64,000 nt of DNA from Escherichia coli O157:H7 (GCF_013167455.1 NZ_CP038328.1); one strand, 5' to 3'. Positions 56,732 to 58,456 are shown, counted from the stretch's first letter. Numbers are program-made.

Positions 56732-58456
56732 TAAGCGTTTCTGATTCATTGATTAAAGGCCAGGCAGTAACATTACTGACTGGCCTTTTTATTACTTTTG
56801 CTTTAACGCCGCATACACCTGATCAACTACCCAACCATACGTTGCAATCGGCAGCTGACCGCTTTCGAACATATTGGGATTCTTTTGCGGATCGGCAACC
56901 GGCGAATGTGGCTTGTTGCTTAACATCACAATCGCCATATGATTCACCGGATCGATAACGGTCACCGTTCCGGTCCAGCCAGTGTGACCGTAGGTTTGCG
57001 GGCTTGCCAGCGTGCCAAACGTCGGCGTCATGGTGGCATTACCATTCACGCGCCAGCCGAGGCCAAAAGTGGCATCTTCCTTAGAGCTGGTGGTGAACAT
57101 CTTCACCGTTTCCGCACTGAACAGCTGCACATCGCCATAGCCCCCGCCGTTCAGCATCGTTTGCATTAACACCGCAATATCGCCGGTATTGGAAAACAAA
57201 CCTGCGTGCCCGGAAACGCCGCCCATCGAATAAAAGGCTTTTTCATCGTGCACCTGACCCCAGTGAGTGGAGGTGCGGATATTCGGGAAGTGGATCACTC
57301 CATCGCGGGTATTGCCGTTCAATTCCGTGGCGGCAATTTGTTGCGGTTTAAAGCCTTTCAGCAGCGGGTTAAATACCGTATGTGTCAGGCCGAGCGGGCG
57401 ATAAATCGACTCTTCAACATAGCGGTCAAGCGGCTGACCGGTGACCGACTCGACGATAAATCCAAGCAGCATATAATCGACATCACTGTAAATATGCTTG
57501 CTGCCGGGCTGATACTCTAGCGGCGTGCGCTTGATCATCTCCAGCGTCTGGCCTTTATCCTGGGAATATAACGCGCCCGCGACCGCTTTATTCGGATATT
57601 GTGGGTCCGCCGGGAAACCGCCGCTGTGATGCAGCAGGTCAGAAATCCGCAGCGTGTTTTTGCCTTTGATGGTGTCATTTGGACTATCGGCAAACCCCGA
57701 AATATATTTCGCAATCAGATCGTCAGGATGCAGTTTGCCTTCGCTCATTAGCTTTTGCAGAGCGAAGTTAGTGGCATACATTTTGGTGTTTGAGGCCAGG
57801 TCATACAGCGTCCCGGTGGTAGCTTTTACAGGCTGCGCCATCAATACGCTGCCATCGTACTTTTTCGCCGCTCCCCAGGCTTTGCGATACACAATCTGAT
57901 TATCTTTTATAATCAGCAGGTTTACGCCGGGATAACCGGCGTCCACTTGCTGGCTAATCCAGCGATCCATCTGGTTAAGCCGTTCGACGTTGAACCCTGC
58001 TTTCTCTGGCGAACTTTCTGTCAGAACAGGGTATTTTGCGGCGCTGACGCTACAACTAACAGCCAGCAGAGAAAGATAGAGCATTGTCCGTTTCATGATA
58101 TCAGTCCAGATTGACGTTACGGCAGCCAAAAAGCGTGGTGAAAATAAACCCGCAAACCCATGCCACCAGAATCCCGCCAGCGTAGACTGCCATCGCCGGA
58201 AGAATGCCTTGTGCTGAAGTCATCAGCGGCAGCGCCACCAGACCAGACGGCCCAAAGGCGCTGTTTAAGCCCATCGGCAGACCCCACCAGGCTATCAATC
58301 CGATAAACAAACCGCCCGCCGCGCCGCCTAAACAGGCGGTAATAAACGGTTTCATGCGGGGCAGGGTGACGCCATAAATCAACGGTTCGCCAACGCCCAG
58401 CAGGCCGGGAATAATCGCCCCGCGTACCTGACTGCGTAATGCACTGTGCGGTTGCG

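What the first reader, a model, noticed from the sequence alone, without database searches (positions are those of the whole stretch)
56755..56790. Shared bidirectional terminator between convergent yfeX and yfeW
A long near-perfect hairpin flanked by A3 and T5 lies in the 57-bp gap between the convergent yfeX and murQ-murP-yfeW units and abuts the yfeW stop, so one structure probably terminates both transcription units. The ypfM/acrD terminator (22613-22646) has the same architecture.
Basis: seen in the sequence. Interest (0 to 1): 0.15.

Follow-up and report, generated by a model that had tools for sequence, protein, structure and literature searches.

The report
Shared yfeX / yfeW transcription terminator hairpin
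A strong stem-loop in the 57-base gap between two E. coli genes that face each other is an ordinary transcription stop signal: clearly for yfeX, probably only weakly for the opposing murQ-murP-yfeW operon.

Summary
Window 56755-56790 holds A3, a 14-bp stem with one G:A mismatch and a 4-nt loop, then T5. It lies in the 57-bp gap between yfeX (+) and pbp4b/yfeW (-), 1 nt from the yfeW stop. It folds at about -20 kcal/mol on both strands (z -5 to -6.5).

It is a canonical intrinsic terminator for yfeX. The tail is UUUUUAUUACUUUU, the stem starts 20 nt after the stop, and stem and T5 are invariant in 12 Escherichia/Citrobacter variants. Published K-12 data place a strong 3' end 7-8 nt after the identical hairpin-plus-U-tract module.

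The yfeW direction is weaker. The tail is UUUAAUCAAU, the A3 run falls to A2 in some lineages, and the stop codon is only 3-6 nt from the stem, so ribosome occlusion is expected. Still, one K-12 dataset maps a 3' end 7 nt after the identical hairpin/UUUAAUC module on that strand.

Verdict: an asymmetric bidirectional terminator of a well-known kind, and low interest.

Side observation: K-12 differs from this window, because a 182-nt hairpin-plus-BIME unit splits and duplicates the hairpin there. That unit varies from 0 to 7 copies in Escherichia, and IS200C inserts right after the T5.

The parts
55835..56734 (+). yfeX CDS (porphyrinogen peroxidase, 299 aa); stop TAA at 56732-56734
   Evidence: annotation of an identical O157:H7 record; translation MSQVQSG...KLMAL
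56755..56788 (.). Terminator stem-loop, readable on both strands. GC-rich basal stem 56758-63/56780-85, extended by three A:U pairs (56755-57/56786-88). G64:A79 mismatch, apical stem 56765-69/56774-78, loop 56770-73.
   Evidence: sequence; dG about -20, z -5 to -6.5 on both strands; 10 of 15 pairs invariant in 12 variants, one pair changed on both sides
56786..56799 (+). U tract of the yfeX-direction terminator (TTTTTATTACTTTT). It overlaps the yfeW stop and its last two codons on the opposite strand. The yfeX mRNA 3' end is predicted at about 56792-56793.
   Evidence: tail score 5.28, d = 35; T5 invariant; K-12 3' ends at 2549405/06, i.e. ...CUGGCCUUUUUAU(U)
56748..56757 (-). Weak U tract of the yfeW-direction terminator (TTTAATCAAT on the - strand). 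The 3' end is predicted at about 56751.
   Evidence: tail score 3.77, d = 7.8; K-12 + strand 3' end at 2549629, i.e. ...CUGGCCUUUAAUC|; A3 reduced to A2 in L090 and L092
56792..58096 (-). pbp4b/yfeW CDS (434 aa), last gene of murQ-murP-yfeW. The stop at 56794-56792 lies 3 nt from the first A:U pair and 6 nt from the first G:C pair of the hairpin.
22613..22646 (.). Comparison site: the ypfM/acrD hairpin A5-GGCGACA-loop-TGTCGCC-T6, between the ypfM stop (22551-53, +) and the acrD stop (22651-53, -)
   Evidence: Term-seq 3' end at K-12 2590726(-)...GUCGCCUUUU, in PMC7815308

Best explanation
The stem-loop at 56755-56788 is an intrinsic (Rho-independent) transcription terminator shared by two convergent units, with very unequal strength in the two directions.

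yfeX direction (+ strand). RNA polymerase transcribes the hairpin 20 nt after the yfeX stop and then a good U tract (UUUUUAUUACUUUU). Hairpin folding in the RNA exit channel, over a weak rU:dA hybrid, releases the transcript about 7-8 nt after the stem, near 56792-93. That is a classical, efficient terminator.

yfeW direction (- strand). The complementary RNA forms an equally stable hairpin, followed by only three proximal U's in an A/U-rich tail (UUUAAUC). This should give weaker, context-dependent termination or pausing near 56751. A ribosome terminating at the yfeW stop, 3-6 nt from the stem, should reduce it further. Convergent polymerase collisions could assist it. Whatever reads through into antisense yfeX is expected to be stopped by Rho and trimmed back to the hairpin. 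The hairpin would therefore define the mature 3' end of both mRNAs, which overlap by about 42 nt.

What is shown and what is inferred. The structure, the tails, the spacing, the conservation, and the K-12 3' ends at the identical sequence modules are shown. Termination, as opposed to 3' trimming, is inferred, as is everything about the O157-type fused allele in vivo.
For: Structure and statistics.

Tail and d-scores: 35 on the + strand and 7.8 on the - strand, both above 0.

Conservation:
- The GGCCAG/CTGGCC and CAGT/ACTG stems and the T5 run are identical in 12 distinct alleles from E. coli, E. whittamii and three Citrobacter genomes, while the flanks and the loop diverge.
- In Citrobacter, A69:T74 becomes G:C and G64 becomes T, which repairs the mismatch to give a perfect 16-bp stem.

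Published K-12 3' termini (TRS, PMC10687069, Suppl. Data 2 and 3), mapped onto the sequence:
- On the '-' strand, 2549405/06 lies 7-8 nt after CUGGCC, inside UUUUUAUU (signal 0.86-0.98).
- On the '+' strand, 2549629 lies 7 nt after CUGGCC, inside UUUAAUC (signal 0.63, significant in 2 of 3 libraries).
- Both modules are base-for-base identical to the two sides of the window hairpin.

Context:
- In BL21-type E. coli (pbp4b deleted) and in Citrobacter, where murP is directly convergent, this hairpin is the only strong structure between yfeX and the mur operon.
- Stem-loops between convergent E. coli genes are reported to act as bidirectional terminators or pause sites (Ju et al. 2019 as summarised in bioRxiv 10.1101/2022.10.23.513370).
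- The predicted points of termination lie 58 nt (yfeX) and 41 nt (yfeW) after the stop codons, inside the usual 25-75 nt range (PMC12207403).
Against: No 3'-end data were available for any strain with the single (O157-type) hairpin.

The curated Term-seq tables of Adams et al. list no 3' end in the K-12 yfeX-yfeW gap. They do list a Rho-dependent region at 2549195(-), antisense in yfeW, so some yfeX-direction transcription escapes the K-12 terminators.

For the yfeW direction:
- The tail has only 3 U's.
- The A run is A2 in some E. coli lineages.
- The stop-to-hairpin spacing of 3-6 nt is in the range where tR2 was almost fully repressed by ribosomes.
- The single supporting 3' end comes from one dataset and was not significant in one of its three libraries. 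It was not seen in the authors' own paired RNAtag/Term-seq tables, at least in the part that is held.

K-12 also shows a 3' end right after hairpin copy 1, which has no U tract at all (2549589/90). A stable hairpin alone can therefore produce mapped 3' ends, probably by exonuclease trimming.

Covariation is weak: 10 of 15 pairs never vary and only one pair changes on both sides.

The constants of the d-score formula were taken from memory of d'Aubenton Carafa et al. 1990.
Confidence: 0.6

Rival explanations
1. Unidirectional terminator. The hairpin terminates only yfeX. murQP-yfeW transcription runs through it into antisense yfeX and is stopped by Rho (untranslated antisense RNA). 3'-to-5' exonucleases then trim back to the stable hairpin, which acts on that strand only as a 3'-end protector.
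For: - T5 is invariant but A3 is not.
- The - strand d-score is marginal (7.8) and negative if the A:U pairs are counted in the stem.
- The stop codon is 3-6 nt from the stem, in the range of ribosome repression.
- K-12 has a 3' end after a hairpin copy lacking any U tract, so hairpin-defined 3' ends occur without canonical termination.
- K-12's yfeW-proximal hairpin copy (tail UGAGAGUGC) yields no reported 3' end on the yfeW strand.
Against: - The K-12 '+' 3' end at 2549629 sits exactly 7 nt after the stem, the canonical release distance, with three proximal U's.
- No Rho-dependent region was reported antisense to yfeX, though the operon is poorly expressed in those conditions.
- Citrobacter and BL21-type alleles have no other candidate terminator for the mur operon.
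Confidence: 0.28
2. Collision-driven bidirectional terminator. The hairpin mainly pauses polymerases coming from either side, and termination results from head-on plus trailing RNAP collisions between the yfeX and mur-operon polymerases rather than from hairpin/U-tract release.
For: The geometry is convergent, with one hairpin in a 57-bp gap and predicted overlapping 3' ends. The model and its need for a stem-loop element are described for E. coli convergent pairs.
Against: - The + strand has a textbook U tract that needs no collision.
- The same hairpin-plus-U-tract module gives a strong 3' end in K-12, where the two modules are about 190 nt apart.
- The mur operon is repressed by MurR without MurNAc (established knowledge), so collisions should be rare. 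The collision model itself works best for highly expressed genes.
Confidence: 0.08
3. The hairpin is not primarily a transcription signal. It is a piece or target of mobile or repetitive DNA, such as a REP-like element, the boundary repeat of the hairpin+BIME unit, or an IS200C target.
For: The hairpin is duplicated at each boundary of a 182-nt hairpin+BIME unit present in 0.2 to 7.2 copies. IS200C sits immediately after the T5 in several strains.
Against: - The hairpin is single-locus in E. coli genomes: 1 to 3 places per genome, all at this locus, and not dispersed.
- It does not match the REP consensus and has no Rfam match.
- It is present without any BIME in Citrobacter.
- It carries a conserved U tract, and 3' ends map to it.
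- Being an insertion or recombination hotspot is compatible with being a terminator.
Confidence: 0.04

Closest known systems
Canonical intrinsic (Rho-independent) terminators of E. coli, e.g. lambda tR2 and trp t
   Same: A GC-rich stem-loop is followed directly by a U-rich tract. It lies 20 nt after a stop codon, with the predicted release point 58 nt after the stop. In K-12 the 3' end is mapped 7-8 nt after the stem.
   Different: The stem is long (14 bp) with an internal G:A mismatch. The U tract overlaps the stop codon and last codons of the opposing gene.
Bidirectional terminators between convergent genes (A-tract/hairpin/U-tract type, and the SEnd-seq class of Ju et al. 2019 and Wang et al. 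2022)
   Same: One hairpin lies in a short gap between convergent units. It is flanked by an A run and a T run, and the 3' ends on the two strands are predicted to overlap.
   Different: It is strongly asymmetric (A3 against T5; d = 7.8 against 35). The A run is not conserved. The hairpin abuts one stop codon. In K-12 the two halves are physically separated by a BIME, so the two 3' ends there map to different hairpin copies.
The ypfM/acrD terminator in the same window (22613-22646)
   Same: A convergent gap holds a hairpin flanked by A and T runs and placed close to the stop of the - strand gene. A Term-seq 3' end lies in its U tract on the + strand of the window.
   Different: It is more symmetrical (A5/T6; d = 30 and 22), with a shorter 7-8 bp stem. 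It lies 11 nt from the acrD stop and 60 nt from the ypfM stop.
REP/BIME elements in 3' UTRs
   Same: A stable extragenic palindrome between convergent genes. In K-12 a true BIME (Y- and Z-type REPs) lies between the two hairpin copies.
   Different: The hairpin has no REP consensus and occurs at this one locus only, and it carries a U tract.

Membership tests
Intrinsic (Rho-independent) terminator, yfeX direction (+) | Stable GC-rich stem-loop with a short loop | tested here: met
   -19.8 kcal/mol, z = -5.6; 6 basal G:C-rich pairs, 14 bp in all, 4-nt loop
Intrinsic (Rho-independent) terminator, yfeX direction (+) | U-rich tract of about 7-9 nt directly after the stem | tested here: met
   TTTTTATTACTTTT; tail score 5.28 (top 0.017% of 15-mers), d = 35. 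T5 invariant in 12 alleles.
Intrinsic (Rho-independent) terminator, yfeX direction (+) | RNA 3' ends 7-9 nt after the stem in vivo | tested here: inconclusive
   Met in published K-12 data for the identical hairpin/U-tract module (2549405/06). No data were obtainable for an O157-type allele, and the Adams Term-seq tables list nothing here.
Intrinsic (Rho-independent) terminator, yfeX direction (+) | Termination independent of Rho and other factors in vitro | not testable with these tools
   Needs in vitro transcription or bicyclomycin Term-seq. In K-12 a Rho-dependent region lies 211 nt further downstream, which indicates some read-through.
Intrinsic terminator, yfeW direction (-) | Stable GC-rich stem-loop | tested here: met
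   -20.0 kcal/mol, z = -6.5; the MFE structure holds 63% of the ensemble in 66-nt context
Intrinsic terminator, yfeW direction (-) | U-rich tract directly after the stem | tested here: inconclusive
   UUUAAUCAAU has three proximal U's. Tail score 3.77 (top 1.5%); d = 7.8 with the core stem, negative if the A:U pairs are counted in the stem. Only UU in L090 and L092.
Intrinsic terminator, yfeW direction (-) | Enough free RNA between the stop codon and the hairpin for folding during coupled translation | tested here: not met
   The spacing is 3 nt to the first A:U pair and 6 nt to the first G:C pair. Li et al. found under 10% efficiency at 5 bp and a requirement of at least 10-15 nt. This is a modifier of efficiency rather than a strict defining feature.
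Intrinsic terminator, yfeW direction (-) | RNA 3' ends 7-9 nt after the stem in vivo | tested here: inconclusive
   In one K-12 RNAtag-seq dataset a 3' end lies at 2549629(+), 7 nt after the identical module. It was significant in 2 of 3 libraries. There the module is about 190 nt from the yfeW stop.
Bidirectional terminator of a convergent gene pair | A single hairpin between convergent units, with an A-rich tract upstream and a U-rich tract downstream | tested here: inconclusive
   The hairpin and the convergent geometry are met. The A tract is only A3 and is not conserved.
Bidirectional terminator of a convergent gene pair | Overlapping 3' ends of both transcripts at the same element | not testable with these tools
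   Needs SEnd-seq or Term-seq of a single-hairpin strain. In K-12 the two ends map to different hairpin copies. Ju et al. 2019 could not be read.
REP/BIME repetitive extragenic palindrome | REP consensus sequence and many dispersed copies per genome | tested here: not met
   1 to 3 places per genome (median 1), all at this locus; one copy in the window. The sequence differs from the REPs at 20352-20395 and 31661-31702 and from the K-12 BIME.
Any Rfam RNA family | Match to a covariance model | tested here: not met
   no match with E <= 1 in 55500-58000

The most novel reading that the evidence does not exclude
The terminator hairpin is also the boundary repeat of a copy-number-variable 182-nt hairpin+BIME unit (0.2 to 7.2 copies across Escherichia), and it is the insertion point of IS200C.

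If this variation is functional, strains would switch between two layouts. In the O157 type, one fused, shared bidirectional terminator produces overlapping, complementary 3' ends of yfeX and yfeW. In the K-12 type, two separated unidirectional modules carry REP-containing 3' UTRs. That switch would tune read-through, convergent interference and mRNA stability of yfeX and murQP-yfeW without touching the coding sequence.

A further speculation is that single-stranded hairpin-plus-T-run terminators are preferred targets of Y1-transposase-type elements (IS200, RAYT/REP).
Probability: 0.12. Interest if true: 0.4.

Novelty: already known. Interest (0 to 1): 0.12.

Why it matters
The element sets the 3' boundaries of yfeX and of the MurNAc-recycling operon, and it limits antisense transcription between them. 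That is useful for annotation and for choosing natural terminator parts, but it teaches nothing new about termination.

The practical lesson concerns the use of K-12 data. K-12 3'-end maps cannot be transferred directly to this O157-type locus, because K-12 carries a BIME that splits the hairpin into two copies with different tails. About a quarter of complete E. coli genomes share the K-12 layout. About another quarter have lost most of pbp4b while keeping the hairpin.

Tried and rejected
- **Consensus terminator scan.** It did not report the hairpin because of the internal mismatch, so it was not used as negative evidence.
- **Rfam at E <= 1.** Nothing found.
- **REP or dispersed-repeat hypothesis.** Rejected.
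- **Covariation test on 12 distinct alleles.** Mostly invariant pairs and a single two-sided change, so it supports conservation but is not proof of structure. Most genera have unrelated sequence downstream of yfeX, so a deeper alignment is not possible.
- **Literature that could not be used.** Ju et al. 2019 (SEnd-seq) is not held. The EHEC Term-seq paper has no held supplement. The TERMITe and SMRT-Cappable-seq supplements have no entry for these genes. A full-text search for yfeX/yfeW with 'terminator' found nothing relevant.
- **Adams et al. Term-seq and Rho tables.** Searched by coordinate prefixes across the gap and antisense yfeX. The only entry is the Rho region at 2549195(-).
- **Hairpin energy alone as a significance test.** Rejected as uninformative in this GC-rich coding sequence.
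- **A 9-of-12 sigma-70-like match at 56669-56698(+) inside the yfeX 3' end.** It could in principle drive a short RNA ending at the terminator. Not pursued, because the match is weak and there is no supporting data.
- **IS200 target preference for terminators.** One literature search gave nothing usable.

Full report
**1. The observation**

The window is E. coli of the O157:H7 type. Bases 56300-57300 are 100% identical to many O157 chromosomes. In those records the + strand gene is yfeX (porphyrinogen peroxidase). The - strand genes are pbp4b (=yfeW), murP and murQ, followed by the divergent murR. In window coordinates yfeX is 55835-56734 and pbp4b is 56792-58096, which leaves a 57-bp gap.

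Bases 56755-56790 read AAAGGCCAGGCAGTAACATTACTGACTGGCCTTTTT. This is a 9-bp basal stem (three A:T pairs plus GGCCAG/CTGGCC), one G:A mismatch, a 5-bp apical stem and a 4-nt loop, followed by T5. As RNA it folds at -19.8 to -20.8 kcal/mol on either strand. The z-scores are -5.0 to -6.5, and none of 200 shuffles folds as well. The motif is unique in the window.

Hairpin energy alone is not exceptional in this GC-rich DNA, where 86 clusters reach -17 kcal/mol or lower. The + strand tail, however, is in the top 0.017% of 15-mers. The conjunction with a 57-nt convergent gap is not chance.

**2. Direction by direction**

I scored both strands with the d'Aubenton-Carafa type tail score and discriminant. 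The constants were taken from memory, so the values are approximate.

| Direction | Tail | Tail score | d |
|---|---|---|---|
| yfeX (+) | TTTTTATTACTTTTG | 5.28 | 35 |
| yfeW (-) | TTTAATCAATGAATC | 3.77 | 7.8 (negative if the three A:U pairs are assigned to the stem) |
| ypfM (+) | TTTTTTATTGCTTAT | 5.57 | 30 |
| acrD (-) | TTTTTCAACTTTCCG | 4.71 | 22 |

The element is thus a textbook terminator for yfeX and a marginal one for yfeW. The ypfM/acrD hairpin at 22613-22646 is far more symmetrical.

Spacing differs as well. The yfeX stop is 20 nt from the stem, while the yfeW stop is 3 nt from the first A:U pair and 6 nt from the first G:C pair. Li et al. (PMC4824070) showed that moving a stop codon to 5 bp from the tR2 hairpin dropped termination from about 90% to under 10%. 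They attributed this to the terminating ribosome sequestering the 5' arm, and found that 10-15 nt of free RNA are needed. The predicted release points lie 58 nt after the yfeX stop and 41 nt after the yfeW stop. Both fall within the usual 25-75 nt range (PMC12207403).

**3. Conservation**

A scan of one genome per species found yfeX in 80 loci. The sequence downstream of yfeX is unrelated in most genera, which have different hairpins, REPs and neighbouring genes. A homologous hairpin is present throughout Escherichia. It also occurs in three Citrobacter genomes, where murP (without pbp4b) is the convergent neighbour.

I aligned 12 distinct alleles.
- The GGCCAG/CTGGCC and CAGT/ACTG stems and the T5 run are invariant. 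The flanks and the loop diverge.
- Ten of 15 pairs never vary, and one pair changes on both sides (A:U in two E. coli alleles including this window, G:C in Citrobacter). In Citrobacter the mismatch position also becomes a T:A pair, giving a perfect 16-bp stem.
- The upstream A run is not invariant. It is CAA or TAA in L090 and L092, which leaves only UU after the stem in the yfeW direction.

Selection is therefore visible on the stem and on the yfeX-side U tract, but not on the yfeW-side tail.

**4. K-12 is different, which matters for using published data**

In K-12 the gap is 239 bp. Hairpin copy 1 keeps the yfeX-side flank but is followed by CAGATTG, with no T run. Next comes a BIME made of two inverted REPs. 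Then comes hairpin copy 2, with a slightly degenerate 5' arm, followed by TTTTTATTAC and the yfeW stop. The O157-type hairpin equals the left half of copy 1 joined to the right half of copy 2.

About 1,408 of 5,425 complete E. coli genomes carry two or more copies.

**5. Experimental 3' ends in the literature (K-12; the K-12 minus strand is the window + strand)**

From TRS (PMC10687069), Supplementary Data 2 (Barsheshet RNAtag-seq sheet) and Supplementary Data 3, mapped onto the sequence:

| K-12 position (strand) | Sequence context | Signal |
|---|---|---|
| 2549405/06 (-) | ...CUGGCCUUUUUAU(U)\|, 7-8 nt after copy 2 | 0.86-0.98 |
| 2549589/90 (-) | ...CUGGCCUCAGA(U)\|, after copy 1, which has no U tract | 0.51-0.68 |
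| 2549479 (-) | inside a REP | 0.57-0.68 |
| 2549629 (+), yfeW direction | ...CUGGCCUUUAAUC\|, 7 nt after copy 1 | 0.63, significant in 2 of 3 libraries |

3' ends therefore map to both tails that flank the single hairpin in this window. Three caveats apply.
- The two ends lie on different hairpin copies in K-12.
- The yfeW-direction module is there about 190 nt from the stop codon, and so free of ribosomes.
- The end after the copy with no U tract shows that a stable hairpin can create mapped 3' ends without canonical termination, presumably by exonuclease trimming.

Adams et al. (PMC7815308) list no curated Term-seq 3' end in this gap. They do list a Rho-dependent region at 2549195(-), 211 nt into antisense yfeW, so some yfeX-direction transcription escapes in K-12. 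Nothing is listed antisense to yfeX. For the ypfM/acrD hairpin they list a very strong 3' end in the ypfM direction only (2590726(-)...GUCGCCUUUU).

**6. Mechanism**

The best reading is one hairpin with two unequal jobs.
- For yfeX it works by classical hairpin/U-tract release near 56792-93, which overlaps the yfeW stop codon.
- For murQP-yfeW it gives weaker termination or pausing near 56751. This relies on three proximal U's in an A/U-rich hybrid. It is lowered by the ribosome at the adjacent stop codon, and may be helped by convergent polymerases, as in the collision model of Ju/Wang/Liu.
- Read-through transcripts would be untranslated antisense RNA. They would be open to Rho and to trimming back to the hairpin, so the hairpin would define the mature 3' end either way.

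In BL21-type strains (pbp4b reduced to an 87-nt remnant) and in Citrobacter, the hairpin is the only strong structure between yfeX and murP, and it lies well clear of the murP stop. That fits a role for both units.

I put about 0.9 on the yfeX terminator, and about 0.5-0.6 on substantial termination or 3'-end definition in the yfeW direction.

**7. Comparison and novelty**

This is a member of two long-known classes: intrinsic terminators, and bidirectional terminators between convergent genes. It is not a REP and matches no Rfam family. Its 3' ends already appear in published K-12 tables. The finding is correct but ordinary, and its interest is low.

**8. Seen in passing**

- The hairpin plus BIME forms a 181-182-nt unit whose copy number varies. 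TRF finds 2.2 copies in Escherichia sp. E1V33 and 7.2 in Escherichia sp. MOD1-EC7003. By reading the sequence, O157 carries only the hairpin part of the unit and K-12 carries one unit plus a second hairpin.
- IS200C is inserted exactly between the T5 and ATTAC in several strains, both with and without pbp4b.
- pbp4b is internally deleted in about 1,286 of 5,426 records, including BL21 and APEC O1, while the hairpin is retained.

These points make the locus a small hotspot of structural variation centred on the terminator. Whether that has regulatory consequences is untested.

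Noticed in passing
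window 56755-56790; L002 1936-2174 (K-12 type); L007 3923-4315; L010 3923-5226: The terminator hairpin is the boundary repeat of a 181-182-nt tandem unit (hairpin plus a BIME of two inverted REPs). TRF finds 2.2 copies in Escherichia sp. E1V33 and 7.2 copies (96% matches) in Escherichia sp. MOD1-EC7003. By reading the sequence, this O157-type window carries only the hairpin part of the unit and K-12 carries one unit plus a second hairpin. About 1,408 of 5,425 complete E. coli genomes have two or more hairpin copies. Citrobacter has the hairpin without any BIME.
   Followed up: partly
L005 1993-2700; also L004 and L093 (equivalent to window 56790/56791): IS200C (about 708 bp) is inserted exactly between the hairpin's T5 run and ATTAC (CTGGCCTTTTT|GTGCACAG...ATATTTATT|ATTAC). 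It occurs in strains with intact pbp4b and in strains with deleted pbp4b. IS200C has its own terminator-like hairpin at its left end. Whether hairpin+T-run terminators are a preferred target was not established.
   Followed up: partly
L003 4524-4610 (BL21); equivalent to window about 56830-58010: In about 1,286 of 5,426 E. coli records, including BL21 and APEC O1, pbp4b/yfeW is internally deleted and leaves an 87-nt remnant annotated as a pseudogene. The hairpin and the last ~39 nt of pbp4b are retained, so murP becomes the last gene facing yfeX.
   Followed up: partly
K-12 2549195 (- strand), equivalent to about window 57003 (+ strand), inside pbp4b antisense: Adams et al. 2021 list a Rho-dependent termination region antisense to yfeW, 211 nt beyond the yfeX terminator (Rho score 3.79). 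This implies read-through of the K-12 terminators or an antisense start.
   Followed up: no
K-12 2549589/90 (- strand), after hairpin copy 1: The 'primary' yfeX 3' end in K-12 maps 5-6 nt after a hairpin copy that has no U tract (CUGGCCUCAGAU). This is either non-canonical termination or exonuclease trimming to the hairpin.
   Followed up: no
window 55793-55815 (+): The yfeY terminator (AATGCCACGGATTGCGTGGCATT + ATTATTTT) lies within the last ~40 nt upstream of the yfeX start (55835), which is about 20 nt after the stem. Term-seq 3' ends at K-12 2550560/61 sit 15-16 nt upstream of yfeX. yfeX transcription from upstream must therefore read through it or start downstream of it.
   Followed up: no
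window 56669-56698 (+): A weak sigma-70-like match (TTCACC, 18-nt spacer, TATTAT; 9 of 12) lies inside the yfeX 3' end. If active it would give a short RNA of roughly 85 nt ending at the terminator. There is no supporting evidence.
   Followed up: no
L009 (DXKH01000140.1, labelled Citrobacter sp. MAG): This contig encodes YfeX 100% identical to E. coli and carries the E. coli-type hairpin and pbp4b. A second contig of the same MAG (L019) carries a Citrobacter-type yfeX. The bin probably mixes E. coli and Citrobacter.
   Followed up: no
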